A stretch of DNA of 64,000 nt from a virus: the IMG/VR virus record IMGVR_UViG_3300036892_000014, positions 1 through 64,000 of that record, one strand, 5' to 3'. The position numbers and the translations under genes are program-made. The notes beneath the pieces were generated by a model that worked only from the letters and a program-made list of their open reading frames with translations, was not told the DNA's origin and did no database searches. Shown in pieces: positions 9,005 through 28,787 of the stretch (position 1 is its first letter; each line of letters starts with the position of its first letter).

Positions 9005-9048
9005 TTGGGGAGTGCCCTAACACTCCCCGACATCCTTTAGGGAGGATG
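9005..9048 (+). promoter_or_regulatory. kissing-loop RBS-masking leader, copy A
   Basis: GGGGAGTG-CCCTAA-CACTCCCC then CATCCT-TTAGGG-AGGATG; loops complementary. Confidence 0.8.
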
Positions 9049-9050
9049 CC

Positions 9051-9557
9051 ATGATTTGTAAACTTTGTAGCGAGGTCTTTTCGTCGAAAGACAAGCGAAG
9101 ACTATTTTGTTCTAGGTCTTGTTCAGCAACGTACTCGAACAAGTTTGGTGATAGACCAGTTTCACAGAACAGACGACCGTGTCCAGATTGTGGGCAAGAG
9201 ATTAGAAATAAGAATACCAAGACTTGCATAGATTGCCGTGCTGGCAGGCAGCACAGAGAAACAGGATTTCTCAAAAAGAAAGACGTGAATCGTGAGAGGA
9301 TTAGCGCTCACGCTAGAAGGGTTATCAAAGAACACCTCTCGTCTTGTAAAGTTTGCGGGTACGACTTTGCTGTAGAAGCAGCGCACGTCAAACCCGTTAA
9401 AGAGTTTTCAGGTGACGCGACGATAGAAGAGATTAACAGAATAGAAAATCTGTTGCCTCTATGTCCTAATCACCACTTAGAGTTCGACCGAGGTAAGTTG
9501 ACTCTAGAAACAATCTTATCGGTTGCGGATGCGAGCGGCAGCAATGCGGCCTTTTAA
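9051..9557 (+). CDS. HNH homing endonuclease (Zn fingers + HNH)
   Basis: CxxC repeats, EAAHVKP...ENLLPLCPNHH. Confidence 0.9.
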   Translation: MICKLCSEVFSSKDKRRLFCSRSCSATYSNKFGDRPVSQNRRPCPDCGQEIRNKNTKTCIDCRAGRQHRETGFLKKKDVNRERISAHARRVIKEHLSSCKVCGYDFAVEAAHVKPVKEFSGDATIEEINRIENLLPLCPNHHLEFDRGKLTLETILSVADASGSNAAF

Positions 9558-9594
9558 GCCGAGTGTCAGGGTTCGAGCCCCTGGCGACCGACCA
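9520..9594 (+). tRNA. tRNA-Lys(TTT)
   Basis: Cloverleaf, CCA; overlaps HNH 3' end. Confidence 0.85.
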
Positions 9595-9600
9595 ATTTTG

Positions 9601-9692
9601 TGGGAATATAGTTCGGGATAATATCCGAATAGTCCTGGCAACGCATGCGAAACCAGGAAAGGGCGTCGTGAGAATCGGCGAGTTCCCAGCCA
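9601..9692 (+). ncRNA. tRNA-like RNA without a standard anticodon loop
   Basis: TGGGAAT/GTTCCCA acceptor + G + CCA, T-arm CGTCG-TGAGAAT-CGGCG, aberrant D and anticodon arms. Confidence 0.6.
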
Positions 9693-9700
9693 TTTTACGT

Positions 9701-9790
9701 GGAAGTGCGGCGAAGACGGCGGGTCGTATCTGTCTGTAAAACAGATTGCCCTTGTGGCACTAAGAGGTTCAAATCCTCTCGCTTCCACCA
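9701..9790 (+). tRNA. tRNA-Tyr(GTA)
   Basis: Cloverleaf, long variable arm, CCA. Confidence 0.9.
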
Positions 9791-9798
9791 TTTTCTAT

Positions 9799-9873
9799 AG
9801 TTCACTGGCGCAACAGCAGCGCAGTCTCTTGATAGGGGAACGGTTCGTGGTGCAAATCCACGGTGGACTACCA
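9799..9873 (+). tRNA. tRNA-Ile(GAT)
   Basis: Cloverleaf, CCA. Confidence 0.8.
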
Positions 9874-9877
9874 ACTT

Positions 9878-9980
9878 AGTGTTGAGTTCGACGTGTGCAA
9901 GCGTCGGATGTAGTACAGCACAATCAGTTCGTTCTCGGACGTAAACCGAATGGTGGATCAATAATTCCTGATGACACTCC
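9878..9980 (+). ncRNA. putative pseudoknotted ncRNA or leader upstream of HNH
   Basis: AGTGTTG/TGACACT outer stem, TTCGACG/CGTCGGA hairpin, loop TGTGC pairs with GCACA. Confidence 0.4.
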
Positions 9981-9997
9981 TGCCCAGGGAGAATCAC

Positions 9998-10489
9998 ATG
10001 ATTATTGTTTCCGATAGTTGGGACGGACAAATAAGAAAGCTGTCCTCTCATAGTTGTTTGCAATGCAGTGAAGAATTTTTCGCGCCGCTTAAAGCGCGAG
10101 CTAAGTATTGTAGTAGAGACTGCATGGGTTTTGCTACGCGGACTCGAATCAAGATTTCGTGTTCTAGGTGTCGTAAAGAGTTTGAACGACAACAGAACAA
10201 AGTTAAAGAGTTAAACTATTGTAGTAGGGAGTGCAAAGAGTTAGACCAGCAGATTGGCGGTCCTCTAGCGCTACCACACTACAAAGACGGCAGACACGAT
10301 TACAGAAATCGAGCGTTTCGCTTACAAGGAAAGAAGTGTAAGCAATGTAGCTTCGATGAAGACGAGCGAATGCTCGATGTTCATCACATAGATAGTAATC
10401 GAGATAACGGACGACCTGAGAACTTAGTTGTTCTTTGCGTTTGGTGTCACGCCGCCACCACAAGAAAAGTTTCTGGGGCTATCGCCTAA
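9998..10489 (+). CDS. HNH homing endonuclease
   Basis: CxxC/YCSRxC repeats, LDVHHIDSNRDN...ENLVVLCVWCH. Confidence 0.9.
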   Translation: MIIVSDSWDGQIRKLSSHSCLQCSEEFFAPLKARAKYCSRDCMGFATRTRIKISCSRCRKEFERQQNKVKELNYCSRECKELDQQIGGPLALPHYKDGRHDYRNRAFRLQGKKCKQCSFDEDERMLDVHHIDSNRDNGRPENLVVLCVWCHAATTRKVSGAIA

Positions 10490-10551
10490 TTGGGATGGCA
10501 CTTCCCTTGCAAGGAAGAACAATGTCGGATCGTCCCCGACTAGCTCCACCA
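10475..10551 (+). tRNA. tRNA-Ala(TGC)
   Basis: Cloverleaf, G3:U70, CCA; overlaps HNH stop. Confidence 0.9.
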
Positions 10552-10560
10552 AGTTTCAAT

Positions 10561-10635
10561 TCGCGGCTGGCAGATCGGCTCATGCATCGGTCCTACACAC
10601 CGACCAGCGAGGTTCAACTCCTCGGCGGCGAACCA
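10561..10635 (+). tRNA. tRNA-Val(TAC)
   Basis: Cloverleaf, C33, CCA. Confidence 0.8.
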
Positions 10636-10639
10636 TTTT

Positions 10640-10714
10640 GGCTCCTTGGTCCAACGAACAAGACTCAGCGCTACGAACGCTGCAATTTCGGTTTGAATCC
10701 GAAGGGGGCTTCCA
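10640..10714 (+). tRNA. tRNA-Arg(ACG)
   Basis: Cloverleaf, CCA. Confidence 0.85.
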
Positions 10715-10719
10715 ATCTT

Positions 10720-10795
10720 TGGGGATTCGTCTAAACGATAAGACATCTGGCCGTTAACCAGACCGATGAAGGTTTGAATCCTTTGTCCCCAGCCA
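10720..10795 (+). tRNA. tRNA-Asn(GTT)
   Basis: Cloverleaf, C33, CCA. Confidence 0.85.
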
Positions 10796-10803
10796 TTTTA
10801 CGA

Positions 10804-10879
10804 GCACGCATCATATAGCGGTCCAATATTCCGAGCTTGTACCTCGGTCACTTCCGTTCGAATCGGAATGTGTGCTCCA
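10804..10879 (+). tRNA. tRNA-Thr(TGT)
   Basis: Cloverleaf, CCA. Confidence 0.85.
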
Positions 10880-10884
10880 GTTTT

Positions 10885-10958
10885 GCTTTGCTCGTCTAGT
10901 GGTAAGACGACGGTTTCGTAAACCGCAAACGACTGTTCGATTCAGTCGCGAAGCTCCA
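10885..10958 (+). tRNA. tRNA-Thr(CGT)
   Basis: Cloverleaf, CCA. Confidence 0.9.
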
Positions 10959-10964
10959 GTTTAT

Positions 10965-11038
10965 GCTTTGTTCGTACAAAGGAAGTACACGTCTTTGGTA
11001 AAGACGAAACGATGGGTCAGTACCATCACGAAGCTCCA
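10965..11038 (+). tRNA. tRNA-Thr(GGT)
   Basis: Cloverleaf, CCA. Confidence 0.85.
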
Positions 11039-11043
11039 GTTTA

Positions 11044-11110
11044 CGCCCCGAGTCACGCAACACGTAGCCTACAAAACAGGTAGGAGCTAGTGGCCTTTTG
11101 AAAGGGGCGA
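11044..11110 (+). ncRNA. putative structured ncRNA
   Basis: CGCCCC/GGGGCG outer stem, GTCAC/GTGGC, CCTAC/GTAGG. Confidence 0.4.
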
Positions 11111-11119
11111 AAAATTTAC

Positions 11120-11198
11120 GGTCTCGTGGCCCAGCCTGGCCCACGGCGCTCCCCTGTCACGGGAGATTTCACGAGTTCAAATCTCGTCGAGACCGCCA
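11120..11198 (+). tRNA. tRNA-Asp(GTC)
   Basis: Cloverleaf, CCA. Confidence 0.9.
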
Positions 11199-11204
11199 AT
11201 TTAT

Positions 11205-11278
11205 GGCCCTGTCTTCTAATGGCAGGATTCTTGCTTCTCAGGCAGGCGGCAGCGGGTCAGTACCGCTCAGGGCTACCA
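11205..11278 (+). tRNA. tRNA-Glu(CTC)
   Basis: Cloverleaf, CCA. Confidence 0.85.
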
Positions 11279-11283
11279 ATTTT

Positions 11284-11358
11284 CGCGCAGTACGTTATGG
11301 GTTAGACAGCGTGCCTTTCAAGCACGCAGACAGAGTTCGAGTCTCTGCTACGCGACCA
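11284..11358 (+). tRNA. tRNA-Glu(TTC)
   Basis: Cloverleaf, CCA. Confidence 0.85.
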
Positions 11359-11448
11359 ATTATCGATGTGTGCGACAACTTTAGCGAAGTAGTTCTCGGA
11401 CACATTGCACGATGCGGTGCAAGTAGCAATTCCGCGTCGGAGTTTAAT

Positions 11449-11533
11449 GCCCTGCTGATGGAATTGGCAGACATATCCGTCTTAGAAACGGATGCCTTCG
11501 GGCGTACAGGTTCGACTCCTGTGTGGGGTACCA
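11449..11533 (+). tRNA. tRNA-Leu(TAG)
   Basis: Cloverleaf, long variable arm, CCA. Confidence 0.9.
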
Positions 11534-11541
11534 ATTTCAAT

Positions 11542-11629
11542 TGTGGGTTCGACTAGTGGCCGATGTCGCCTGTCTCATAAGCAGGTCAGCGAAAGCGCAC
11601 CGTTGGTTCAAATCCAACACCCGCAACCA
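11542..11629 (+). tRNA. tRNA-Met or Ile2 (CAT) with long variable arm
   Basis: Cloverleaf, CCA; Met versus lysidine-Ile cannot be resolved by eye. Confidence 0.8.
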
Positions 11630-11644
11630 ATTTGATGCATCATA

Positions 11645-11689
11645 GGCCGGGGTGCCCTTAACACCCCGACCAACTCTTTAAGGGAGAGT
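11645..11689 (+). promoter_or_regulatory. kissing-loop RBS-masking leader, copy B
   Basis: CGGGGTG-CCCTTAA-CACCCCG then ACTCT-TTAAGGG-AGAGT. Confidence 0.8.
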
Positions 11690-11692
11690 GCT

Positions 11693-12187
11693 ATGTTTAA
11701 CAAGGCAGAAAACCATAAGCGTTACATGCGGGAAGTTTGGTATCCGGCTAACAAGCGAAAACACCAGACGATGGTTCACCGACGTAAGGTAGCCATACTA
11801 GAATTTGTTCGAGCCGCTAAAGCAATCGGCTGTTCGAGGTGTCCAGAGAAAGAGATATGCTGTCTGGACTTTCATCACGCTAAAGGTAAGAAGAGCGCCA
11901 GCCTATCAAGGGTTCATACGTTGGGCTGGTCGTGGGCTAGGATTAAGCGAGAGATCGCAAAGTGCATTATATTGTGTTCTAACTGTCACAGGAAAGAACA
12001 TGCTAGAGGCCGTGGGCTCGTTTCCCACCCCTGCTACCAATTTATGAATCATAAACGCCGTCGCCCAAAGAATCGCCGTGCTGGATGTCTCATGTGCAAA
12101 GCGCATAAGATGAACGGTGCAAAAGGTGAAATGCTCGCGACCAAGGTCAAGGGCATCAAGGGTAAGATACGGCTTGAAGAAGTTTAA
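11693..12187 (+). CDS. HNH endonuclease fused in frame, through a tRNA remnant, to a small basic ORF (12044-12187)
   Basis: CSRC...LDFHH...EIAKCIILCSNCHRKEH, then reads through a tRNA 3' half. Confidence 0.8.
   Translation: MFNKAENHKRYMREVWYPANKRKHQTMVHRRKVAILEFVRAAKAIGCSRCPEKEICCLDFHHAKGKKSASLSRVHTLGWSWARIKREIAKCIILCSNCHRKEHARGRGLVSHPCYQFMNHKRRRPKNRRAGCLMCKAHKMNGAKGEMLATKVKGIKGKIRLEEV
12003..12039 (+). pseudogene. 3' half of a tRNA (T-arm, acceptor strand, CCA)
   Basis: GTGGG-CTCGTTT-CCCAC CCCTGCT A CCA ATTT; 5' half absent. Confidence 0.7.
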
Positions 12188-12261
12188 GCGATGTTGGTAT
12201 AGTGGTAGAACGATTCCTTGCCAAGGAATAGGCACCGTTTCGATTACGGTACGTCGCTCCA
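12188..12261 (+). tRNA. tRNA-Gly(GCC)
   Basis: Cloverleaf, CCA. Confidence 0.85.
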
Positions 12262-12475
12262 TAGCCGCGAGTGGTGAAAGCCACGGACGGCTCCAAGTTT
12301 CGTTAACCCCGCAATTATGGCGGGACAACCAAATCGTAGGTAGGTTGAAAACCCTACCCCAATTTTACCATATGCCTTGCGGCATGATCGGCATACATAG
12401 TAGAAGCCGCAGTCTTCGCTGCCCGTCAGTTGTTCAAGACTTTAAACATGGGCGACGGGCGAATTTAGGTGATCT

Positions 12476-12721
12476 ATGTTCACAGCCGTAGTGATGACAC
12501 TCGGACTTGTTGTAGACTTGGTCGCTCTGTATTTCTTAGTCGGCATTTGGCGCGATGACAGATTGATGAGAATCGCCGCAGAAGACACATTGAAGGTGCA
12601 GCAAGAATATCTCGGCCTCAGACGAAAGTGGTATGAGAGTCGCACAAAGAAGAAGACTGATGCTCAAGAACCGAAAGCCGCAACTGGAATTCCTGATGGC
12701 GGTAGTTCGAACCCTGTGTAA
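12476..12721 (+). CDS. small membrane protein
   Basis: AGGTG RBS, N-terminal TM helix. Confidence 0.6.
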   Translation: MFTAVVMTLGLVVDLVALYFLVGIWRDDRLMRIAAEDTLKVQQEYLGLRRKWYESRTKKKTDAQEPKAATGIPDGGSSNPV

Positions 12722-12785
12722 CGTGGCAGGCGTAATCATCAGCATCATTTACGTTCTTTGGCAAATGCATTTGTTACCTTTTTAA

Positions 12786-12859
12786 GCGGGCTTGACCGAA
12801 CGGCCAGGTACCTGCCTTCCAAGCAGAGGAAGCGATTTCGACTATCGCAGTCCGCTCCA
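12786..12859 (+). tRNA. tRNA-Gly(TCC)
   Basis: Cloverleaf, CCA. Confidence 0.85.
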
Positions 12860-12862
12860 GTA

Positions 12863-12943
12863 TTCGGGTAGAGGGGTTCGAATCCCACAGGCGTGAACGG
12901 GTAAGGCCGCACGTTGCTATAGTGTAATGGCAGCACACCCGAA
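12863..12943 (+). ncRNA. circularly permuted tRNA-like RNA (YrlA / Y RNA-like)
   Basis: T-loop TTCGAAT precedes D-arm AGTGTAATGGCAGCAC; ends pair TTCGGGT/ACCCGAA. Confidence 0.65.
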
Positions 12944-12954
12944 ATTAGTTCCGC

Positions 12955-13029
12955 GAGTCGCAAGTGTTATGGCTGCATCTCCGTCTCCAAAACGGTAGGG
13001 TGATAGTTCGAATCTATCGCGTCTCGCCA
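12955..13029 (+). tRNA. tRNA-Trp(CCA)
   Basis: Cloverleaf, CCA. Confidence 0.85.
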
Positions 13030-13036
13030 ATTTTAT

Positions 13037-13111
13037 GGGTCTCTCGTTCAATGGAGAGGACGCCACACTTCTAAGGTGGCTATGTCGGTTCGATTCCGAC
13101 GGGGCCTTCCA
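13037..13111 (+). tRNA. tRNA-Arg(TCT)
   Basis: Cloverleaf, CCA. Confidence 0.85.
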
Positions 13112-13117
13112 GTTTCT

Positions 13118-13192
13118 GAATGTATAGCTCAATGGAAAGAGCTAGGGTTTCCTAAACCCTCGATCCAGGTTCGACTCCTGGTACGTTCTCCA
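13118..13192 (+). tRNA. tRNA-Arg(CCT)
   Basis: Cloverleaf, CCA. Confidence 0.9.
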
Positions 13193-13206
13193 GTTCAAGG
13201 GGCAGT

Positions 13207-13605
13207 ATGAAACTCAGTAGGTTCCCATATTGGCAACTGCTAGCGATACCTGCTCTAGCGTGGTGCCTAGGACTCGGATTAAACCAGGCGGTATTGATTG
13301 CCAATCACGGGAAGTTCCCCGTGATGGTGAATGAAGTCCAGTATGAGATACATTGCACCGCGGATGAAGACTCAGATGACGCGCCGTCATCATCGTGTGT
13401 AAAAGGCGGTCAGTTCTTTGATAGAGAACATAGTGTTATGGGGCCGAACTCGCGTCTGAAACCATTAGCCGACATCCTTCCGATAGTCGGCGGCGTATAC
13501 AGTATCGGCGACACTCTACTCCTCGTGGGTGGAGAGTCATTTGCAATTTTGAAATTTATGTGGCTTGCTCTGGTAATCAGAAAGGCCTCACAGAACTTAG
13601 GGTAG
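13207..13605 (+). CDS. DUF5317-like membrane protein
   Basis: LNQAVLIANHGKFPV...HSVM...SRLKPLADIL...YSIGD motifs. Confidence 0.7.
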   Translation: MKLSRFPYWQLLAIPALAWCLGLGLNQAVLIANHGKFPVMVNEVQYEIHCTADEDSDDAPSSSCVKGGQFFDREHSVMGPNSRLKPLADILPIVGGVYSIGDTLLLVGGESFAILKFMWLALVIRKASQNLG

Positions 13606-13912
13606 GCTGGACGACCGCAGGAAACTGAGGAAGTTCGGGACTCTTCTAGACAGAAGACTGTGGAAGATGCAGGACGCGTAAGCGTACGGGTAAGGCCAGA
13701 TGCGGTGCAGATGCTATGGGAAACCAAATGCGGACATCGCCATTCAAGTCTGGGCACTCCCTCTTCGGAGCAATCTCAAATAGGACCTGAGCGCGTCTAG
13801 CGCGATGACGGTCGGGTTGAGAGCAAAGACGGATGGTCGTCAACTTATAACGTGACAATTCGAAAGATTTGTCAACTTATAACGTGACAGAATCCCGGCT
13901 ATAGGCCGACCC
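13600..13912 (+). ncRNA. rnpB: RNase P RNA (bacterial A-type-like, reduced)
   Basis: GAGGAAGTTCGGGA and ACAGAATCCCGGCTA form P4; P1, P2, P3, P6 (CTAGA/TCTAG), P8, P9 and P15-17 can be paired. Confidence 0.9.
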
Positions 13913-13923
13913 AAAGATATTAC

Positions 13924-14009
13924 GGATCAGTGGCGAAATGGTAGACGCACGAGTTTGCTAAACTCGCAACTGAAAGGTTGTGCCTGTTCAAGTCGGGCCT
14001 GATCCGCCA
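13924..14009 (+). tRNA. tRNA-Ser(GCT)
   Basis: Cloverleaf, long variable arm, CCA. Confidence 0.9.
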
Positions 14010-14017
14010 AATTTCAA

Positions 14018-14102
14018 GGAAGATTCCGCTCATGGTGGGCAATCCGGTTTGAACCCGGAGGCTGCTGAAAGGCAGGGGTTTCGATTACTCACTCTTCCTC
14101 CA
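14018..14102 (+). tRNA. tRNA-Ser(TGA)
   Basis: Cloverleaf, long variable arm, CCA. Confidence 0.8.
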
Positions 14103-14108
14103 TTTTAA

Positions 14109-14182
14109 CCACGAGTCGGCAAACGGCAAGCTGAATGTCTGCAAAACATTTACCGCTGGTTCGACTCCAGCCTCGTGGTCCA
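14109..14182 (+). tRNA. tRNA-Cys(GCA)
   Basis: Cloverleaf, U73, CCA. Confidence 0.9.
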
Positions 14183-14191
14183 AGTTTCTAC

Positions 14192-14266
14192 TGGGCGATG
14201 GTGTAACGGTAACATCACGGACTTTGAATCCGTTGGATGAACGTTCGAATCGTTCTTGCCCAGCCA
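14192..14266 (+). tRNA. tRNA-Gln(TTG)
   Basis: Cloverleaf, CCA. Confidence 0.9.
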
Positions 14267-14274
14267 ATTTCAAT

Positions 14275-14349
14275 TGCTCGGTCATCTAATTAGTAGGATG
14301 CGATCCTCTGAAGATTGTCATGCTGGTGCGAGTCCAGCCCAAGCAACCA
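14275..14349 (+). tRNA. tRNA-Gln(CTG)
   Basis: Cloverleaf, CCA. Confidence 0.85.
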
Positions 14350-14350
14350 A

Positions 14351-14426
14351 CACCCGATAGCTCAAAGCGATTAGAGCACCTGGCTTGACCAGAGAGATAC
14401 CGCCTAGCGAACGGTTTGGGTGACCA
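14351..14426 (+). ncRNA. tRNA-like RNA with 5-nt anticodon loop
   Basis: CACCCGA/TTGGGTG acceptor + ACCA, D-arm, CTGG-CTTGA-CCAG, non-canonical T-loop. Confidence 0.6.
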
Positions 14427-14433
14427 ATTTAAT

Positions 14434-14522
14434 CGGGTTATAGCTCCGTAATCTGGCAGCGGTCTGGTTTTGGAAACCAGTGACTAACGTCCTTCGAGGT
14501 CCGAATCCTCGTAGCCCGACCA
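14434..14522 (+). tRNA. tRNA-Pro(TGG) with extended variable arm
   Basis: Cloverleaf, CCA. Confidence 0.85.
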
Positions 14523-14542
14523 TTTTGTATGTACGTACATTT

Positions 14543-14590
14543 GACGGGACGAGCCTGTAACTCGTCCCGTCTACTCTTTACAGGAGAGTA
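14543..14590 (+). promoter_or_regulatory. kissing-loop RBS-masking leader, copy C
   Basis: GACGGGACGAG-CCTGTAA-CTCGTCCCGTC then TACTCT-TTACAGG-AGAGTA. Confidence 0.85.
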
Positions 14591-14592
14591 TC

Positions 14593-14973
14593 ATGATTAG
14601 TTCAGAAGCGCAGAAAGCGTGGAAGAGAAAAGACTATCTAGATAAGAAAGCATATAAGAAAGCATATTATTTAGCGCGAGACACCGAGCGATACTACAGG
14701 TTTCGAGAGATTTTGATTGAGGCGAAGAGAAAGCCTTGCATAGATTGCGGACACGAGTTTCCGACCTGTGCAATGGATTTGCATCATAGAAACCAGAGTG
14801 AGAAGATTCGAAACGTCTCTACCTTAAAAGACTTCTCTTCCGAGAAGAAATTGAGAGAAGAGATTGCCAAGTGTGATGTGATATGTGCTTGCTGTCATCG
14901 AATCCGCTCAGATAAAGACAAAGTTTACTTCGGGAATTCTGATAGTGGTAATCTACGCCCTTCGGATGGGTGA
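14593..14973 (+). CDS. HNH endonuclease
   Basis: CIDCG...MDLHH...EIAKCDVICACCHRIR; stop codon lies inside tRNA-Pro(CGG). Confidence 0.85.
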   Translation: MISSEAQKAWKRKDYLDKKAYKKAYYLARDTERYYRFREILIEAKRKPCIDCGHEFPTCAMDLHHRNQSEKIRNVSTLKDFSSEKKLREEIAKCDVICACCHRIRSDKDKVYFGNSDSGNLRPSDG

Positions 14974-15004
14974 GACAGAGTTTCGATTACTCTATTCCCG
15001 ACCA
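14931..15004 (+). tRNA. tRNA-Pro(CGG)
   Basis: Cloverleaf, CCA. Confidence 0.85.
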
Positions 15005-15013
15005 TATTAAAGT

Positions 15014-15050
15014 AAAGCCGCCTTCGCTTTAACAAGCAGGCGGCTTTTGT
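15014..15050 (+). terminator. rho-independent terminator ending the tRNA array
   Basis: AAAGCCGCCT...AGGCGGCTTTT hairpin with T-tract. Confidence 0.75.
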
Positions 15051-15068
15051 ATTTCTGGAGGTGTCGTC

Positions 15069-15542
15069 ATGTGGATGGGACAAGGGCAACTAAACTTCGA
15101 TGACGGCACTGTGCAGGTTACCGCAGCGGGTGGACCCGCAACCATTATTCAGACTGTGGCTATCGACCCCACAGCGCCAACAACCGGACAGGTTCTAACC
15201 GCGATCAGCGCCAGCGCAGCAAGTTGGCAAGCTGCTGGTGGTTCTTCATTGAACTACAAGACCATACGTTCTGCCCCGACGAGCTTTACTCAGGCAGGAA
15301 TTACCGGTCCTATCGTGATGTCTTTCTCTACACCTTTTGCGGACAACAACTACACCATACAGGTCACTGTATTAGGTGATGAAGTTGCTCCAGGCACACC
15401 CACAATCACTCAGTTCCCTTCAGTAGGAATTAGTTACATCGCGCTTCAGACAACCCCTGGCGCTGGTGTGAATGTGTGGATTGCAAATAACGATTCCATT
15501 GCGCACACGGGCATCATACACGTCACCGCAATTCACGACTAA
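15069..15542 (+). CDS. putative virion protein
   Basis: GGAGG RBS, Thr/Gly/Ala-rich beta-type sequence. Confidence 0.7.
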   Translation: MWMGQGQLNFDDGTVQVTAAGGPATIIQTVAIDPTAPTTGQVLTAISASAASWQAAGGSSLNYKTIRSAPTSFTQAGITGPIVMSFSTPFADNNYTIQVTVLGDEVAPGTPTITQFPSVGISYIALQTTPGAGVNVWIANNDSIAHTGIIHVTAIHD

Positions 15543-15557
15543 GATTCAGGAGACACG

Positions 15558-17087: not shown

Positions 17088-17127
17088 ATCGGTTTAGCCC
17101 TCGGGGTTGCTCCCGAAGGTGAGACTT

Positions 17128-17179
17128 GGGGAGTGCCTACTCGCTCCCGTATTAAAACAAATCAGAAAGCGTAGGGAGC
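17128..17179 (+). promoter_or_regulatory. degenerate kissing-loop leader, copy F
   Basis: GGGAGTG-CCTACT-CGCTCCC with GTAGG partner at 17171; second stem lost. Confidence 0.45.
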
Positions 17180-17194
17180 AACAGGGGATTTAAA

Positions 17195-17575: not shown

Positions 17576-17708
17576 TATTCGCTATTTGCGAATCGAGAAC
17601 GGAGAAATTTAAAATTTTGTTAGCATCCAAAAGGGTGCTTCAATAAAGCGCAGCGTTTGCGTGCTAGAGTAATCGAAGCGCAGCGTTCGCGTTCATAGGG
17701 AGAAACAA

Positions 17709-20212: not shown

Positions 20213-20227
20213 TTTTAGGAGTCAGTC

Positions 20228-20533: not shown

Positions 20534-20572
20534 CATCGGACATTCCTCGGCCCATTACCGAGGCGCAGACTC

Positions 20573-20619
20573 GTGGGCGTGCCTAACTCACGCCCGCAGT
20601 CGCATTCTAGTTAGGAGAA
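20573..20619 (+). promoter_or_regulatory. kissing-loop RBS-masking leader, copy E
   Basis: GGGCGTG-CCTAACT-CACGCCC then TTCT-AGTTAGG-AGAA, ATG at 20624. Confidence 0.75.
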
Positions 20620-20623
20620 AGAT

Positions 20624-20755
20624 ATGCCTGTTAAGGGTCAGATTAATCCTGCGATTCGAGATCAGCGAACTATTTGGATGAGTCTAAGGAAATGAGATTA
20701 GAACCAACAACCGAGGATTTTACGGTTGCTTCGAAATTATTGCAGGAGCACTTAA
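20624..20755 (+). pseudogene. probable deletion remnant of an endonuclease gene
   Basis: 23-codon ORF after leader E; another frame has RSANYLDES, resembling EndoVII C-termini. Confidence 0.4.
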
Positions 20756-20944
20756 ATGGCAAAGCACAATGCGTCCCTATACAGGGCGATGCATCAACTT
20801 AGAAAAGGAAATTTGCATAAGCATCTTGGTATTCCTGAAGGTAACTCTATTCCCGCTGAGAAATTAGAAGTCTCTCCGAATGATAGTGAACACGTCAAGC
20901 ATATGAAGAATTTTGCAAAAACCATGTCAGGATTTAAACACTAA
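20756..20944 (+). CDS. small basic phage protein
   Basis: AGGAG RBS; KGNLHKHLGIPEG motif. Confidence 0.65.
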   Translation: MAKHNASLYRAMHQLRKGNLHKHLGIPEGNSIPAEKLEVSPNDSEHVKHMKNFAKTMSGFKH

Positions 20945-21171: not shown

Positions 21172-21173
21172 CC

Positions 21174-21440: not shown

Positions 21441-21452
21441 GTTGGAGGCTCA

Positions 21453-23729: not shown

Positions 23730-25844
23730 ATGTCGGAACCGCTAAATAATCAGGCAGCGTTGATACTTGGGAATCGCGAGGTTACCGCTGCGGATCAGAT
23801 TACGTCAGAGAACATACACAAGGATAAGGATACTGGTACCTTCCTGTATGATGACCAAGCGGCTCTGAAGTTAGTTATTAACGATGCGGCAATGGCGGAC
23901 AACTACGCCAACGTCAATCAGTGGGCCAGCACTTGGACGCAGTCAGCGATTATTTTGCAGAGTCCAGCGAGCGCTTCGGCGTTCGACGGCGGCAACATAG
24001 CGCAGGCTAACGTTCCCAAGTTCACGTTATCGAACCACATAAGTGAGATAGTGCCGAAGATTATGGAAGGACTCTTTTATGAAGACCCTCCGTTTCTTCT
24101 TCGCCCGCGCCCGGGTACAAAACAGGAAATAGTCCGTTCAAAGACGGCACTGTTCTCTGCGCAATTGTGGGACATGCAGTTCAAGGTTGAGATGGAGCGT
24201 GGCCTTGAACAGATGGCGCTACTCGGCACCACAGTATTTAAGTGGGGCTACTTAGAGCGTCCCGTTAAATTGAAGCAGTTTCGCCGTAAGCAGGAACAGT
24301 TGCAACTTAATACATCTGTTCCAACTGACCCGATTAACACACCGGATTCTGACGCTTACGAAATGTTTATCCTCGACGAAGTGGAATCACGTCCGTGGAT
24401 AAAGTACTGTGATATTCGTACTGTATTGGTTGAGCCAGGATGCCGTTACGGCGATATCCGTCGCGCAAAGTGGGTAGTATATCGCGACTTTGCTACATAT
24501 GATGATTTGAACACGCTGCGCAATGTTCCAGGCTACGATATCCCCGACGAGAAAACGTTGAGGGCGTTGTTCATGTCTGGTGCGACAACGGGTGCTGACA
24601 ACATTACCATGACCATCCCAGAAGGGATGCGTGGTTATTTGCAGCAAGCGTTGCCACGTAGCTTCAGGAGTTCGACTGATGAGTTGCAGAACTCGTTGGA
24701 AATTCTTGAGCGCTGGGACAATGATAAGGTTATTGTCGCGCTTACCTTCAATGGTAAGCACATACTGATTCGTAACGAACTCAACCCGTACGGAAAGATT
24801 CCGTTCCTTTCGGCCAACTGGCGCAACCTGCCAGACAGTTTTTACGGACAAGGCCTAGGCCAGCTAATCGGAAGCGAGCAAATCGTGGAGCAGGGAGTTA
24901 CCAACCTTGCGCTCGATCTACTTGCTTATGGATTGCAGCCGACAGCCATTCGTAAGAAGGGCTTCAACGTTCCGACACAGATGACCCGTTGGAAGCAAGG
25001 CGGAATCATCGACGTTGACGACGACGTTGACAAGGCTTTTAAGTTTATGACCATGCCTCCCGTACCGAGCGAGGCTTGGCAATTCATTAACCAGGCAAAG
25101 CAGGATGCGGCTGGAACATCAGGTTCAAACGAAATCGTAGGCCAGGGCGGCACCGTCGGTGGTGGTCGCGGCACCGGAATGCGTTCGGGTACCGGAGCGG
25201 CAGCCGTTGTTCAGGCTAATGCTAGCCGACTTGACGGCCCGACCACACGCGTGATTGAGCAGGTTTTTGAACCGTGGCTTTACCAGATGGATCAGTTGAA
25301 TAATGAACTGCTTCCGACCAGTGTCCTCCGTCGTGTATTGGGCGAGGAAATGGGCAATGACTACTTGCAAGATCACATTGAATTTCGCAATGCGAAGTTT
25401 CAGTATGAAGTTCTTGCAGGAGCGCATCTCGGGGCCAAGAAAGAAATGGCTCAGGCGTTGCCAGTCATCATTCAACTTTTGAATAACCCGACGTTCGTGA
25501 AGAACGTTAATGACGGGCACTATCAGTTCGACGCGGTTGCAATCTTCAAGGCGTTTACGGATGCGGCAGGTTGGAAGTTCTCTCAAGAATTCCTACGCCC
25601 GATGACACCAGAAGAAACACAACGCTATGAAGCGAATTCGCCAGCGGCACTTCAGCAGCAACAGTTGAAGGCGCAGCAGAATCAGGCGCAGCAAAAGTTC
25701 CAACAGGAACAGCAATTAGAAGATCAAAAGCAACTCGGAAAGGCGGGAGCAGAAGTTCTTCGCGCAACAACTGAGCACAGCTTGTCTTCTGAAGATACGG
25801 GAGAACCGGGCAATCAAGGTTTCGGTTCGGAAGTTTCCGTTTAA
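23730..25844 (+). CDS. portal protein (P22-like)
   Basis: 704 aa after terL; NPYGKIPF, FYGQGLG, Gln-rich C-terminal barrel. Confidence 0.85.
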   Translation: MSEPLNNQAALILGNREVTAADQITSENIHKDKDTGTFLYDDQAALKLVINDAAMADNYANVNQWASTWTQSAIILQSPASASAFDGGNIAQANVPKFTLSNHISEIVPKIMEGLFYEDPPFLLRPRPGTKQEIVRSKTALFSAQLWDMQFKVEMERGLEQMALLGTTVFKWGYLERPVKLKQFRRKQEQLQLNTSVPTDPINTPDSDAYEMFILDEVESRPWIKYCDIRTVLVEPGCRYGDIRRAKWVVYRDFATYDDLNTLRNVPGYDIPDEKTLRALFMSGATTGADNITMTIPEGMRGYLQQALPRSFRSSTDELQNSLEILERWDNDKVIVALTFNGKHILIRNELNPYGKIPFLSANWRNLPDSFYGQGLGQLIGSEQIVEQGVTNLALDLLAYGLQPTAIRKKGFNVPTQMTRWKQGGIIDVDDDVDKAFKFMTMPPVPSEAWQFINQAKQDAAGTSGSNEIVGQGGTVGGGRGTGMRSGTGAAAVVQANASRLDGPTTRVIEQVFEPWLYQMDQLNNELLPTSVLRRVLGEEMGNDYLQDHIEFRNAKFQYEVLAGAHLGAKKEMAQALPVIIQLLNNPTFVKNVNDGHYQFDAVAIFKAFTDAAGWKFSQEFLRPMTPEETQRYEANSPAALQQQQLKAQQNQAQQKFQQEQQLEDQKQLGKAGAEVLRATTEHSLSSEDTGEPGNQGFGSEVSV

Positions 25845-25859
25845 CCAATAAGGAATAGC

Positions 25860-26195
25860 ATGCCTACACCACTAATGTTTGATGAACTAAATGCAACTGA
25901 GCGCGTTAATCTCGCGGGACTCCAACAGCATCCAGGATATGCAGTTCTGGAGAAGTTGATGATGTCCGCTTGCCGTCGCGCCACTGAATTAGTTATCGCA
26001 TTGGACCCGACCGCGGAGGACTACGAGCGTAAGCTACGAGTCCTTCAAAGTCTTGCTCGCGAACGAAGTCAATTTTGTACGTTGGTCTTGAAGTCTGTAG
26101 CCTGGCAAGTTGATTATGAAGCCGAGTTACAGAAGAAAGAGAAGCCAACAGACAAGCCAGAACGTAATCCAATACTGAAGGGGATGCCACAATGA
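25860..26195 (+). CDS. hypothetical protein (portal-adjacent)
   Basis: Helical 111 aa at a conserved position. Confidence 0.65.
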   Translation: MPTPLMFDELNATERVNLAGLQQHPGYAVLEKLMMSACRRATELVIALDPTAEDYERKLRVLQSLARERSQFCTLVLKSVAWQVDYEAELQKKEKPTDKPERNPILKGMPQ

Positions 26196-27412
26196 GTGAT
26201 CTAGCACCTACGCCACAAAGCATTGATATGGCCATGATCCGCGGATGGGACGCGGCGACCATGAAGAGATATATGGCTGGCCCGTTACGTGCTACCATAT
26301 TTGAAGTGATCTCGAACGCTGAGACTGCTAGGCAGGAACAAGCGGCTGCTGCACAGACGGAACTGGCGCAAGCCCCTCCTGTTGTCGGTGAGCCCGCAAC
26401 TACGGATGTTGCCGAAGTAGAGCGTGTTCGCGCACAGCGTGTTGCCGAAGAAGCGCAGCGCGTTGAAGCACAGCGTCTCGAAGCAGAAGCTGTCGCTGCG
26501 CAAGTACCAAAAAAGATCGTTCTTGAATATCAAGTGACAGATGAGAGCGGGAACGCCATCGGGCGTCCGACTCATCTTGAAGCCACCAGCCATGAAGAAA
26601 TGGTTGCGAAGGTTAAGGAAGCGCACATACAAGCAACGCGTGCGTTTAATCGCTTGAAGAGTCAGAAAGTACAATCCCTGAAAGAGGCAACCGCGTCAGG
26701 ACAGATCGTGACGCCTCCCCAGGCTGCTCCGAGCATGTCCGATGAGGAAATGATCGCAGCCATTAAGGCACTAAAGTCAGACGACCCGAAGGTCGCCTTG
26801 GAAGCTCACAGAAAGTTGCAAGCGGATGAACTAGCCAAGCAGAAGGCTGTATCCGATGCGGAACTCGCTAGAGTAAATGAAGATCGTCGCCAAGAAAAAG
26901 TCAGCCATGGTTTCTTGAACGATCACAAACACGATTTTAATCCGTGCGAAGCGAACATTAATCTGATTCGTGATTACTTCCAAGAAAATCAATTACCTTG
27001 GACACGCGATAATCTAGAAGTAGCTTTGCTCGCTAAGTCATCAGAGTTGGCTGGAGTTGTACAGCCAACAGCGCCTGTCGCCCCTAATCCGGTTCCGACA
27101 GCAACGCTACCCGCAGCAGCGGTAACAACTACAGTAGCGGTCCCGCCAGTGCAGGCGGCTCCGACTGCGACGGTCGCAGCAATTCCTCCGGCAAATCCGG
27201 CAGTGATTGTTCCGAGACCGGGCGTTAACGCAGGAGTAGTTCCCGGTGAGACCTCAGGGTCGCGCCCGACAGGAACGACTTCGAGCGGCATAACGGTAGC
27301 AGAGATTACTTCATGGGATGCTAAGACGATGCGTGAGAAGATGCGTAATCCGCAGCTTCGAGCCCAAATACAGGCAGTCATCGCAGCCAACCCCACGAAT
27401 AAGTTTCGCTAA
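26192..27412 (+). CDS. putative capsid scaffolding protein
   Basis: Ala/Glu/Gln-rich coiled coil before the capsid gene; WDAxTM motif at both ends. Confidence 0.65.
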   Translation: MSDLAPTPQSIDMAMIRGWDAATMKRYMAGPLRATIFEVISNAETARQEQAAAAQTELAQAPPVVGEPATTDVAEVERVRAQRVAEEAQRVEAQRLEAEAVAAQVPKKIVLEYQVTDESGNAIGRPTHLEATSHEEMVAKVKEAHIQATRAFNRLKSQKVQSLKEATASGQIVTPPQAAPSMSDEEMIAAIKALKSDDPKVALEAHRKLQADELAKQKAVSDAELARVNEDRRQEKVSHGFLNDHKHDFNPCEANINLIRDYFQENQLPWTRDNLEVALLAKSSELAGVVQPTAPVAPNPVPTATLPAAAVTTTVAVPPVQAAPTATVAAIPPANPAVIVPRPGVNAGVVPGETSGSRPTGTTSSGITVAEITSWDAKTMREKMRNPQLRAQIQAVIAANPTNKFR

Positions 27413-27459
27413 AGAGTCCCAGCGAAGTCTGAAGACTAAGGGGCACACGGAGGCTTGCT

Positions 27460-28701
27460 ATGGCAGGCTCACCGAATCCGTCAGCAGCAAATGTAGGAAA
27501 TATACTGACGGCGCAAAGCATTATGTTTGATAAGGAACTCATCCCGAACTTGAAGGGAGAAACGGATGCGTTCATCGTAGCAGCAGAAAAGCGTGTACAG
27601 CCGAACGGCGTTGGTATCAACCGCCAGTTCTTCCAGTACAACACTTTGACTGGTGATACGACACAGGTAGGAGACGGAGTTGTTGGCTCACCGGAATTCG
27701 TCGGTCAGATCAGCGCCCCGGCTCAGTTGGGCGAATGGAACAACTACACGAACTTCAGTTCGTTCGTAATTGCTTCAGCGCTTGACGACCTAGTGGGTAA
27801 TTCCGCAGTCGAACTAGCCTACCAGGCTGGTCAGAGCATTTCCGAGTTGTACAGCGCCGTAGCAGACAGTGCTGGTCTAGCCTCAGTGGACACACAGGTT
27901 AACCAGAGCGCTTTGCTAGCATCGCCTTACACATTGGACTTGGCAACTGTACGTGAATTGAAGCAGCAGCTTGTTTCAAAGAACGTACTGCCGAACCGCA
28001 ATGGTAAGTTCGCAGGCGTTGTATCTTCTAACGTGTTGGGCGACATCTTCAACGCAACGACAGTGAACAACTCAATCGTTGACTTGTGGAAGTACGCAAA
28101 CATCGAGAAGTTCGACAAGATCGCTGGTGCAGACCAGAAGATGGACATCGAACTCCCGGGAACGAACATCGTGCTTCGTCAGACGCCGTTCGTAACCACG
28201 ACCGCTAACTACGCTGGCTCAGGTAAGATTTCTTACCGTACCTACGTAATGGGACAGTATGCCTTGATCGGCATCTGGCAGCAAGTTGGTGGAGACACCG
28301 ACTTGGGTGACGGAGACTGGCGCACAATCGACTGCAAGGTCGTAGAGAGCGCACCGGCATCAGCATTTGATCCGACGGGAACAATCGGTGGATAAAGAGT
28401 ACTGTCCACTTTAAATTTTCTCTGATTGACTTGAACGCTGAAAAGCCAACAAGGGGCAAGCCGAAAGGCAGCCTGAACGACTAAGTGAGAAAACACCCTC
28501 TGACAAAAGGGTGATGCGATAGTCTGACCATACGGGAATCAAAACCGTATGAACCGAACAGAAATGATTCGGTACACTCTGGTGAGTGTTAACAAGAGCG
28601 GGTGCTCATATAAATTTCACCAAACAGTTTCATTGCCGCCAGCACGTGGGGCTAACACCCAGCGTATGCGCTACATTGACTCTGTCCCAGCAATTCAGTA
28701 A
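27460..28701 (+). CDS. major capsid protein, spliced (join 27460-28393, 28601-28701; 344 aa)
   Basis: Position after scaffold; splicing gives DPTGTIGG-W-CSYKFHQTV...DSVPAIQ. Confidence 0.85.
28394..28600 (+). mobile_element. group I intron without an ORF (207 nt)
   Basis: P1 GGTGGAT/GTCCACT with U:G, P10 GAGTAC/GTGCTC, R CTGAACGACTA, S GATAGTCTG, terminal G. Confidence 0.9.
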
Positions 28702-28730
28702 TAAACCTCTTCCCACGGGCTTATAATCCG

Positions 28731-28787
28731 TGGTATACTAATCAGGGGCATGCCAGAAACATGCCCCAGATTCTCTTTTCTGGAGAG
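28731..28787 (+). promoter_or_regulatory. extended -10 (TGGTATACT) plus kissing-loop leader, copy D
   Basis: GGGGCATG-CCAGAAA-CATGCCCC then CTCT-TTTCTGG-AGAG. Confidence 0.8.

What the first reader, a model, noticed from the sequence alone, without database searches (positions are those of the whole stretch)
9005..28787. Covarying kissing-loop RNA leader that masks the RBS of different homing endonuclease genes
Seen: the same ~45-nt architecture precedes four endonuclease genes and two orphan sites, with different primary sequence. Hairpin 1's loop is exactly complementary to hairpin 2's loop: 9005 CCCTAA/TTAGGG, 11645 CCCTTAA/TTAAGGG, 14543 CCTGTAA/TTACAGG, 28745 CCAGAAA/TTTCTGG, 20573 CCTAACT/AGTTAGG; 17128 CCTAC/GTAGG is degenerate. 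Loop 1 always starts CC and loop 2 ends GG followed by AG, so the GGAG Shine-Dalgarno is split between the loop-loop helix and stem 2. The ATG follows 2-5 nt after stem 2. The genes belong to different families (two HNH subtypes and EndoVII). A -10-like hexamer (TACATT, TATACT) lies just upstream in several copies. Known: T4 homing endonuclease genes use single RBS-sequestering hairpins. Inference: a portable structured translational switch that travels with homing endonucleases and limits their toxicity. I do not recognise it as a described motif.
Basis: partly seen in the sequence, partly recalled or inferred. Interest (0 to 1): 0.92.

Follow-up and report, generated by a model that had tools for sequence, protein, structure and literature searches.

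The report
Loop-pairing leader RNA of phage nucleases
Five selfish DNA-cutting-enzyme genes (one now decayed) of this uncultured peat phage start behind the same small two-hairpin RNA, whose two loop tips are always exact complements and bury the ribosome-binding site; the leader is a widespread RNA family absent from Rfam that most likely keeps nuclease production low.

Summary
Five clean copies lie at 9004-9050, 11645-11692, 14543-14592, 20568-20623 and 28740-28792, and a decayed one at 17128. They belong to a large family. An 18-base pattern that leaves three loop bases free hit 85 sites in viral contigs, and 78 had complementary triplets; in prokaryote genomes only 3 of 120 did. A covariance model found about 30 further copies outside the pattern, all with exactly complementary loops. 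Of 58 genes downstream, 56 encode GIY-YIG, EndoVII, HNH or related endonucleases. Rfam and the paper library hold nothing like it.

New here:
- Hairpin 1 has a covarying lower stem and abuts hairpin 2, usually with 0-3 nt between them. A coaxial kissing complex within one molecule is therefore sterically excluded.
- The loop pairing must form either as an alternative pseudoknot or between molecules.
- Hairpin 2 alone already pairs the whole Shine-Dalgarno sequence.
- The "orphan" at 20575 is followed by an out-of-frame remnant of an EndoVII gene.

Translational repression is inferred, not shown. This scan has reported the same family before on other phage DNA (e1-6022528, e1-5993448, e1-6047847 and others). 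I rate it a new variant of the known RBS-sequestering control of homing endonucleases.

The parts
9004..9050 (+). Leader copy S1. H1 is 9004-9031 with loop CCCTAA at 9015-9020. H2 is 9031-9048 with loop TTAGGG at 9037-9042. SD is GGGAGG at 9040-9045. It heads the HNH_2 gene 9051-9557.
   Evidence: 37 bits; MFE -25.9, z -4.3
11645..11692 (+). Leader copy S2. H1 is 11648-11668 with loop CCCTTAA at 11655-11661, and 11645-46 pairs with 11670-71 as a lower stem. H2 is 11673-11689 with loop TTAAGGG at 11678-11684. It heads the HNH-type gene 11693-12187.
   Evidence: (50 bits)
14543..14592 (+). Leader copy S3. H1 is 14543-14571 (11 bp) with loop CCTGTAA at 14554-14560. H2 is 14572-14590 with loop TTACAGG at 14578-14584, and there is no linker. 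It heads the HNH-type gene 14593-14973.
   Evidence: 57 bits; z -6.2
20568..20623 (+). Leader copy S5. The lower stem pairs 20568-71 with 20598-601. The upper stem is 20573-81/20589-97 with loop CCTAACT at 20582-88. H2 is 20605-19 with loop AGTTAGG at 20609-15. The ATG at 20624 opens only a 23-codon frame.
   Evidence: (39 bits)
20659..20769 (+). Out-of-frame remnant of the C-terminus of an EndoVII-type endonuclease. It shows that copy S5 once headed a nuclease gene that has since suffered an internal deletion.
   Evidence: tblastn 54% identity over 37 aa, E = 2e-11, to the nuclease behind the same leader type in L079
28740..28792 (+). Leader copy S4. The lower stem pairs 28740-43 with 28769-72. 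The upper stem is 28745-52/28760-67 with loop CCAGAAA at 28753-59. H2 is 28773-87 with loop TTTCTGG at 28777-83, and there is no linker. It heads the EndoVII gene 28793-29284.
   Evidence: (46 bits); RNA contig 28731-28975 in run X10
28712..28739 (+). Upstream module of S4. Hairpin H0 is 28713-18/28728-33 with the 9-nt loop GC-UUAUAA-U. It is followed by the extended -10-like TGGTATACT at 28731-39.
20545..20563 (+). Upstream hairpin H0 of S5 (CCTCGG-cccatta-CCGAGG).
17098..17178 (+). Decayed cassette. It keeps an H0-like hairpin (17098-17119, with 15 nt identical to H0 of L079) and an H1-like hairpin (17128-17148, loop CCTACT). GTAGG lies at 17171-75. There is no H2 and no nuclease gene.
   Evidence: 5 bits; z -0.6
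8988..9001 (+). Palindrome TTGTACGTACA with -10-like TACATT, between the 3' end of tRNA-Lys (8987) and S1. The same element lies at 14528-14541 before S3 and before leaders in other contigs.

Best explanation
The sites are copies of one uncatalogued leader-RNA family that heads free-standing homing-endonuclease genes in uncultured phages, here mostly 65-110-kb contigs; this one is from peat.

**Anatomy**
- H1 is a G-rich hairpin. Its upper stem is 7-9 bp. Its lower stem is made from the upstream flank and the apparent 'linker'. Its loop is 6-7 nt and usually reads CCxxxAA.
- H2 is a weak hairpin that directly abuts H1. It reads CUCU|UUxxxGG|AGAG, so its loop and 3' arm contain the GGAG Shine-Dalgarno sequence.
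- The AUG lies 2-7 nt further on.

**How it most likely works**
- H2 alone can pair the whole Shine-Dalgarno sequence, through UU.GG wobbles plus CU/AG.
- The strictly Watson-Crick loop 1:loop 2 helix adds a second lock on the same bases.
- The element most likely acts in cis on the mRNA to keep nuclease translation low. The transcripts concerned are abundant: the tRNA cluster, read-through from the capsid gene, or the cassette's own strong promoter.
- The full H1, H2 and the loop-loop helix cannot coexist in one chain. The loop pairing therefore forms as an alternative conformer: an H-type pseudoknot of the upper stem plus the loop helix, with the lower stem and H2 open.

**Shown:** sequence anatomy, covariation of all helices, gene association.
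**Inferred:** RNA-level action, repression, the conformers.
For: **Loop-loop covariation**
- 78 of 85 viral pattern hits have the three free loop bases complementary, where chance gives 1 in 64.
- The same pattern in prokaryote genomes gives 3 of 120.
- 10 of 10 and 43 of 43 (one of these by eye after the automatic parser failed on its H1) covariance-model hits are complementary. These include changes at positions the pattern had fixed: CCGCAAT/ATTGCGG, CCTTATA/TATAAGG, CCTAAAC/GTTTAGG.
- On hits from 16 whole genomes the loop helix is 99.1% paired and 5 of 7 pairs change on both sides. H1 is 98.4% paired with 8 of 8 pairs covarying. H2 is 91% paired with 3 of 5 covarying. 0 of 500 shuffles reach these values.

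**Structure**
- The lower stem averages -5.1 kcal/mol against -2.0 for permuted partners, p = 4e-16.
- MFE folds give H1 plus H2 with GGAG paired, z = -2.2 to -6.2.

**Gene association**
- 56 of 58 downstream ORFs are nucleases of the GIY-YIG, EndoVII, HNH and phrog_3322 types. A PD-(D/E)XK-like one was seen, judged by eye only.
- The decayed copy S5 keeps a nuclease remnant.

**Other**
- RNA libraries from peat contain the leaders.
- Precedent: RBS-sequestering helices control I-TevI, I-TevII, I-TevIII, mobE and probably segB (PMC3014915).
Against: - No experiment or read-level data here shows reduced translation.
- The cis pseudoknot must pay for melting the lower stem and H2, so by nearest-neighbour reasoning the two-hairpin state should dominate. 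That leaves the perfect loop complementarity under-explained by a purely cis model.
- In the pseudoknot, L1 would be 0 nt unless the near-invariant G-C closing pair opens.
- If H2 alone suffices to hide the Shine-Dalgarno sequence, the second lock needs a separate reason.
- RNA contigs cannot show 5' ends, so which transcript isoforms exist is unknown.
Confidence: 0.6

Rival explanations
1. The complementary loops pair between molecules. Each leader is a rigid two-hairpin unit whose loops cannot reach each other. Loop 1 of one mRNA therefore kisses loop 2 of another, and vice versa, giving closed dimers or chains. The RBS is locked only when the mRNA is abundant, so the element works as a dose-limiting brake. 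An upstream hairpin with a self-complementary loop may nucleate the dimer in read-through transcripts.
For: - H1 (11-16 bp) abuts H2 with 0-3 nt between them in 65 of 78 copies, and the lower stem covaries. That arrangement prevents cis pairing.
- The 7-nt loops are fully complementary, closed by G-C and almost free of G.U: 1 wobble in roughly 230 variable cells, against about 5% in H1. This matches the ColE1 RNA I/RNA II kissing pair (established knowledge).
- A closed antiparallel dimer closes geometrically for any stem lengths (my inference).
- The apex of the upstream hairpin H0 is often a 4-6-nt palindrome: UUGCAA, GGCC, GAUC, UGCA, UUAUAA, UCAUGA, AGCU.
- phi29 pRNA and bicoid mRNA are precedents for same-molecule complementary loops that pair in trans (my knowledge, not checked here).
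- No genome among 16 repeats a loop code. This is only a weak hint: 0 duplicates against 1.9 expected, P = 0.11.
Against: - There is no physical evidence.
- In-cell mRNA concentrations may be too low for bimolecular kissing.
- Not all H0 loops are palindromic (CCCATTA at 20551-57).
- In copies with a full promoter, H0 lies in the promoter spacer and may not be transcribed with the gene.
- The within-genome uniqueness test is not significant.
Confidence: 0.25
2. The fold is mainly a recognition or stability element, and RBS occlusion is secondary. It could be a 5'-terminal hairpin that protects the mRNA, a target for an RNase or a phage or host protein (RNase III on the stacked H1/H2 helix, or a Rop-like binder), or an insulator on polycistronic tRNA and late transcripts.
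For: - Predicted transcription starts fall at or just before the G-run of H1. -10-like hexamers peak 4-7 and 10-11 nt upstream of the 7-bp core, against 0.8 per bin expected. H1 would then be the 5' terminal hairpin.
- Three window copies sit directly behind tRNA 3' ends, where processing occurs.
- The G-C closing pair and the CC/GG and AA/UU loop ends are strongly conserved in sequence, not just in pairing.
Against: - This does not explain why the loop partner is always the SD-containing loop.
- It does not explain why the element is almost exclusive to nuclease genes.
- No candidate protein is conserved next to it.
- Stability elements do not need loop-loop covariation.
Confidence: 0.1
3. 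The element acts at DNA level, as part of a promoter or operator, a cruciform, or a recombination or homing signal of the nuclease cassette. The RNA folds would be by-products.
For: - It adjoins promoters at fixed spacing.
- Upstream palindromes run through their centres, like protein-binding or cruciform sites.
- The loop helix is Watson-Crick only.
Against: - Interleaved inverted repeats (H1 arms around loop 1, H2 arms around loop 2) have no known DNA-level meaning.
- G.U pairs occur in H1, H2 and H0 on the coding strand only.
- The fixed relation to the SD and AUG, and strand specificity (all copies on the gene's sense strand), point to RNA.
Confidence: 0.05

Closest known systems
RBS-sequestering hairpins of T-even-type homing-endonuclease genes (I-TevI, I-TevII, I-TevIII, Aeh1 mobE, T4 segB; PMC3014915)
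   Same: An mRNA helix hides the SD or AUG of a phage homing-endonuclease gene and limits its translation. segB also sits in a tRNA gene cluster.
   Different: Those are single, gene-specific hairpins, relieved by a late promoter inside the hairpin. They have no shared sequence family and no second hairpin whose loop covaries with the SD loop. Here one conserved fold serves four or more nuclease families, and the promoter-like hexamers lie upstream of the whole fold.
ColE1 RNA I / RNA II kissing loops (7-nt fully complementary loops; my knowledge)
   Same: Both have two stable hairpins with 7-nt loops that are complementary over their full length and closed by strong pairs.
   Different: In ColE1 the two loops are on two different RNAs (antisense control of replication). 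Here they are on one mRNA and one of them contains the SD.
   Same: Complementary loops in the same molecule cannot pair in cis for steric reasons and therefore pair between molecules.
   Different: Their functions are a packaging-motor ring and mRNA localisation. Loop pairing is 4-6 nt and no RBS is involved. Trans pairing is not shown here.
Leader pseudoknots of T2/T4 gene 32 and the E. coli rpsO (S15) operator (my knowledge)
   Same: A hairpin loop in a 5' leader pairs with downstream bases near the RBS. rpsO alternates between a two-hairpin form and a pseudoknot.
   Different: Those are operators for the gene's own protein product. No autoregulatory protein is implied here, because the products differ in family.

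Membership tests
Any Rfam 15 family | Score at or above the family's gathering threshold | tested here: not met
   Across the whole window only tRNAs pass. With relaxed thresholds on two leaders, the best hits are 17 bits against 55 (R1162 antisense) and 14 against 43 (ROSE_3), all with E > 0.3.
T-even-type RBS-sequestering hairpin of homing endonucleases | SD and/or AUG lies inside an mRNA helix upstream of a homing-endonuclease ORF | tested here: met
   The MFE folds pair GGAG in H2 in four of the five copies (partly in S5); z = -2.2 to -6.2. The downstream ORFs are nucleases.
T-even-type RBS-sequestering hairpin of homing endonucleases | A promoter inside the 5' half of the hairpin yields transcripts with a free RBS | tested here: not met
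   The -10-like hexamers lie 4-11 nt upstream of H1. None lies between H1 and the SD. Transcript 5' ends could not be read from contigs.
Kissing-loop complex | Two hairpin loops with Watson-Crick complementarity maintained by covariation | tested here: met
   99% paired, 5 of 7 pairs with double changes, and 31 distinct loop codes among 48 copies.
Kissing-loop complex | Both stems and the loop helix can coexist in the same molecule | tested here: not met
   H1 is 11-16 bp and H2 4-6 bp, joined by 0-3 nt in 65 of 78 copies. A coaxial stack of 22-29 bp would need a linker of roughly 60-80 A. This is geometric inference; no 3D model was run.
H-type pseudoknot | A hairpin loop pairs with downstream single strand, and the connecting loops are long enough | tested here: inconclusive
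   There are 13-22 nt between the loops. That leaves L3 of 6 nt or more if the lower stem and H2 open. L1 is 0 nt unless the G-C closing pair opens. Energetics were not computed with a pseudoknot model.
Sigma-70 promoter plus leader cassette | -35 and -10 elements at 16-18 bp spacing, at fixed distance from the leader | tested here: inconclusive
   35 of 78 copies have TTGACA-like/N16-18/TANNNT. In the window only S4 has an extended -10 (TGGTATACT) with a weak -35 (TTCCCA). S1 and S3 have TACATT only. No TSS data are available.

The most novel reading that the evidence does not exclude
The leader is built so that its two complementary loops cannot meet in cis. They kiss between mRNA molecules, possibly nucleated by an upstream hairpin with a palindromic loop. 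The resulting closed dimers or chains bury the ribosome-binding site only when the transcript is abundant. This would be a protein-free, concentration-sensing brake on selfish nuclease genes, with a different orthogonal loop code for each gene copy.
Probability: 0.25. Interest if true: 0.9.

Novelty: new variant of a known kind. Interest (0 to 1): 0.78.

Why it matters
Homing endonucleases must be expressed enough to spread but not enough to harm the phage or host. Until now the known controls were gene-specific hairpins in T4-like phages. This is a modular leader of roughly 50 nt that accompanies at least four unrelated nuclease families across many uncultured phages. Its comparative support is among the clearest possible: dozens of loop codes, all exactly matched.

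It offers three things:
- a ready-made annotation marker for mobile nuclease cassettes and their decayed remnants;
- a natural set of orthogonal 7-nt kissing or pseudoknot pairs for RNA engineering;
- a testable case of whether mRNAs use loop-loop pairing, in cis or between molecules, to cap translation.

Tried and rejected
- **Searches for relatives that gave little.** Relatives of the HNH_2 gene: none found. Relatives of the terminase: only two short contigs. GenBank phage BLAST of the window and of two related loci: only a tRNA-sized match or nothing. The phage group therefore has no named relative in that set.
- **Metatranscriptome contigs.** They show that the leaders occur in peat RNA libraries, but they cannot give 5' ends, strand or level. 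I draw no TSS or expression conclusion. One contig starts at 28731, which is not evidence of a start.
- **Within-genome uniqueness of loop codes.** 0 duplicates in 16 genomes against 1.9 expected, P = 0.11. Not significant.
- **Loop 1 (CCxxxAA) as an anticodon-loop mimic tied to the neighbouring tRNA.** The triplets do not match the adjacent tRNA anticodons. Dropped.
- **61393-61415.** An H1-like hairpin only (14 bits), with no partner loop. Chance.
- **H1 as an intrinsic terminator.** There is no U-tract after the stem.
- **Host inference.** One copy lies in a contig binned as Bryobacterales (L147), but its neighbouring genes gave no PHROG hits. No host claim is made.
- **Literature.** Four full-text searches found no description. 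The library lacks most subscription journals, so absence there is not proof.


Full report
**1. Observation**

Reading the six sites and running a blind script scan for two hairpins with complementary loops confirms five clean copies on the + strand. Each has these parts:
- a G-rich hairpin H1 with a 6-7-nt loop that begins CC;
- a weak hairpin H2 whose loop ends GG and whose 3' arm begins AG, so GGAG is split between loop and stem;
- an ATG 2-5 nt after H2.

The loop pairs are exact:

| Site | Loop 1 | Loop 2 |
|---|---|---|
| S1 (9007) | CCCTAA | TTAGGG |
| S2 (11648) | CCCTTAA | TTAAGGG |
| S3 (14543) | CCTGTAA | TTACAGG |
| S5 (20575) | CCTAACT | AGTTAGG |
| S4 (28745) | CCAGAAA | TTTCTGG |

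The scan of the whole 83.9-kb contig found no further copy. A specific pattern gave 3 window hits against 0 in 100 shuffles.

Four copies head nuclease genes: HNH_2 at 9051, PHROG 'HNH endonuclease' at 11693 and 14593, and EndoVII at 28793. Three of them sit directly behind tRNA genes in a 28-tRNA cluster.

**2. It is a large family with very strong covariation**

- I scanned IMG/VR with CTCTCCNNNAAAGAGN{8,20}GTTNNNGGC, which leaves the three central loop bases free on both sides. It returned 85 matches in 83 stretches.
- In 78 of the 85 the free triplets are exact complements, where chance gives 1 in 64. Nearly all also have the H1 stem and a start codon.
- The same pattern in 596 Gb of prokaryote genomes served as a control. 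Two of those look like true copies.
- A covariance model of the two hairpins does not encode the loop-loop pairing (R1). In the fetched loci it found 10 further unique copies that do not fit the pattern, and all 10 have perfectly complementary loops.
- In 15 whole related virus records the model found 43 copies, all complementary; one of them was confirmed by eye after the automatic parser failed on its H1.
- These hits include changes at positions the pattern had fixed: CCGCAAT/ATTGCGG, CCTTATA/TATAAGG, CCTAAAC/GTTTAGG and CCACTAT/ATAGTGG.

Formal counts on the whole-genome hits:

| Helix | Cells paired | Pairs changed on both sides |
|---|---|---|
| H1 upper stem | 98.4% | 8 of 8 |
| Loop-loop helix | 99.1% | 5 of 7 |
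| H2 | 91% | 3 of 5 |

No shuffle out of 500 reached the observed values. Sliding the 3' partners by 1-3 columns drops pairing to 42-56%. The 48 copies in 16 genomes carry 31 different loop codes.

**3. Association with homing endonucleases**

- Of 58 complete ORFs directly behind leaders, Pfam finds GIY-YIG in 21, Endonuclease_7 in 14, and HNH or HNH_2 in 3.
- PHROGs adds endonuclease VII, HNH and 'endonuclease' families.
- BLAST clustering puts 54 ORFs into four nuclease clusters.
- Two of the four singletons are also HNH, so 56 of 58 are nucleases. The exceptions are a primase/helicase-like protein and one unknown.
- A further copy heads what looks by eye like a PD-(D/E)XK-type protein (not run against a family library).
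- The window's 'orphan' S5 is followed by an out-of-frame stretch at 20659-20769. That stretch is 54% identical (E = 2e-11) to the C-terminal tail of the EndoVII-type nuclease that follows the same leader subtype in L079. S5 is therefore a cassette whose gene suffered an internal deletion.
- The site at 17128 keeps an upstream hairpin with 15 nt identical to that of L079, and an H1-like hairpin. It has lost H2 and scores only 5 bits. It is a remnant.
- One HNH gene in the window (9971-10489) has no leader.

**4.

(a) The apparent linker is not free.
- It pairs with the bases upstream of H1 to form a lower stem, often across a 1-nt mismatch or bulge. In S4, AATC at 28740-43 pairs with GATT at 28769-72. 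In S5, GACT pairs with AGTC. In relatives, GATTGA pairs with TCAATC.
- Duplex energies of true flank/linker pairs average -5.1 kcal/mol, against -2.0 for permuted partners (p = 4e-16).
- H1 is thus typically 11-16 bp. Its base is 0-3 nt from the base of H2 in 65 of 78 copies.

(b) H2 alone can hide the SD.
- In the MFE folds H2 extends into its own loop through U.G wobbles (CUCUUU-xxx-GGAGAG). The whole SD is then paired by H2 alone. z-scores are -2.2 to -6.2.

(c) The loop-loop helix is almost purely Watson-Crick.
- It holds 1 wobble in roughly 230 variable cells. About 5% of H1 cells are G.U (the cell totals are my tally of its table).

(d) Upstream modules recur.
- Many relatives carry a near-consensus promoter, TTGACA-N17-TGnTAAGAT, whose spacer is itself a covarying palindrome with centres TTGCAA, GGCC, GATC or TGCA.
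- S4 and its relatives have TTCCCA-N18-TGGTATACT around a hairpin with the loop GC-UUAUAA-U or CC-UCAUGA-A.
- S1-S3 and their relatives have the palindrome TTGTACGTACAA or TTGTAGCTACAA.
- S5 and 17128 have a CCTCGG-7nt-CCGAGG hairpin.
- -10-like hexamers peak 4-7 and 10-11 nt upstream of the 7-bp core (0.8 per bin expected). That puts predicted starts at or just before the G-run of H1.

**5. Mechanism**

Shown: all helices are under selection, the element is on the sense strand at a fixed distance from the SD and AUG, and it is nearly exclusive to nuclease genes. G.U pairs occur on the coding strand only, which argues for RNA.

Inferred: it limits translation initiation.

The steric argument is my inference from A-form geometry.
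- In a kissing complex the loop helix stacks between the two stems, so the stem bases lie at opposite ends of a 22-29-bp rod, roughly 60-80 A apart.
- A 0-3-nt connection cannot span that distance.
- The three helices therefore cannot coexist in one chain, and two readings remain.

Reading (i): alternative conformers.
- The two-hairpin form alternates with an H-type pseudoknot made of the upper stem plus the loop helix. The melted lower-stem strand and CUCU then serve as loop 3, which would be 6 nt or more in every copy.
- This form resembles the gene 32 and rpsO leaders.
- It is easier in transcripts that start at the G-run and so lack the 5' strand of the lower stem.

Reading (ii): pairing between molecules.
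- The design fits this reading: rigid stems, preformed 7-nt loops closed by G-C, no wobbles, and cis pairing blocked.
- A closed antiparallel dimer closes for any stem lengths.

I give 0.6 to a cis-acting RBS lock with conformer exchange, 0.25 to trans pairing, 0.1 to a mainly stability or processing or protein-recognition role, and 0.05 to a DNA-level role.

**6. Comparison with what is known**

- Rfam 15 has no matching family.
- Four full-text searches found no description.
- The closest known systems are the RBS-sequestering hairpins of I-TevI, I-TevII, I-TevIII, Aeh1 mobE and T4 segB (PMC3014915). The purpose is the same, but those are single, gene-specific hairpins relieved by an internal late promoter. 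That feature was tested here and is not met.

**7. Context**

- The contig recurs in peat, permafrost and freshwater metagenomes by word share.
- Near-identical contigs occur in four peat metatranscriptome runs that I laid, including pieces over leaders S2 and S4.
- This scan has reported the same leader family before on other phage DNA: e1-6022528, e1-5993448, e1-5993437, e1-6047847, e1-5999179 and e1-5610869. My tests were run independently on this window and on public contigs, and they agree with those notes.

**Verdict**

This is a new RNA family, a new variant of a known kind of control, with an unresolved and interesting structural question.

Noticed in passing
window 28393-28601: RNA contigs from two peat metatranscriptome runs of different studies (X10, X12) join 28393 directly to 28601, skipping 207 nt. 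This fits a spliced intron in the major capsid gene (27460-28395 plus a second exon), as other notes of this scan proposed (e1-6065692, e1-6065699).
   Followed up: partly
window 28712-28733, 20545-20563, 17098-17119; relatives L017-L099: A third hairpin or palindrome (H0) precedes the leader. In many relatives it fills the spacer of a near-consensus TTGACA-N17-TGnTAAGAT promoter, and its arms covary. Its apex is often a 4-6-nt palindrome (TTGCAA, GGCC, GATC, TGCA, TTATAA, TCATGA, AGCT). Two 9-nt loops have the layout of the HIV-1 dimerisation loop.
   Followed up: partly
window 8988-9001 and 14528-14541: The palindrome TTGTACGTACA lies directly after the 3' ends of tRNA-Lys and tRNA-Pro and before leaders S1 and S3. 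The same element, or TTGTAGCTACAA or TTGTGCACAA, precedes leaders in unrelated contigs. Its role is unknown: promoter, RNase site or dimerisation element.
   Followed up: no
window 20659-20769: An out-of-frame remnant of an EndoVII-type endonuclease C-terminus lies behind leader S5. It is 54% identical over 37 aa to the intact gene in L079. The cassette lost most of its ORF by deletion.
   Followed up: yes
window 9971-10489: An HNH endonuclease gene in the tRNA cluster has no leader of this family. Not every nuclease gene of the phage uses it.
   Followed up: partly
L147:5532-5570 (contig binned as a Bryobacterales MAG, 209 kb): A true-looking copy of the leader precedes a 249-aa ORF with no PHROG match, in a contig binned with an Acidobacteriota genome. 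This is either a host hint or a mis-binned phage.
   Followed up: partly
alignment A4, columns 16-22 with 52-58: The loop-loop helix contains almost no G.U pairs: 1 in roughly 230 variable cells, against about 5% in hairpin 1. Selection on it is stricter than on an ordinary stem.
   Followed up: no
window 61393-61415: An isolated H1-like hairpin (GGGGGATG-CCATGAA-CGTCCTCC, 14 bits) has no complementary partner nearby. Probably chance.
   Followed up: partly
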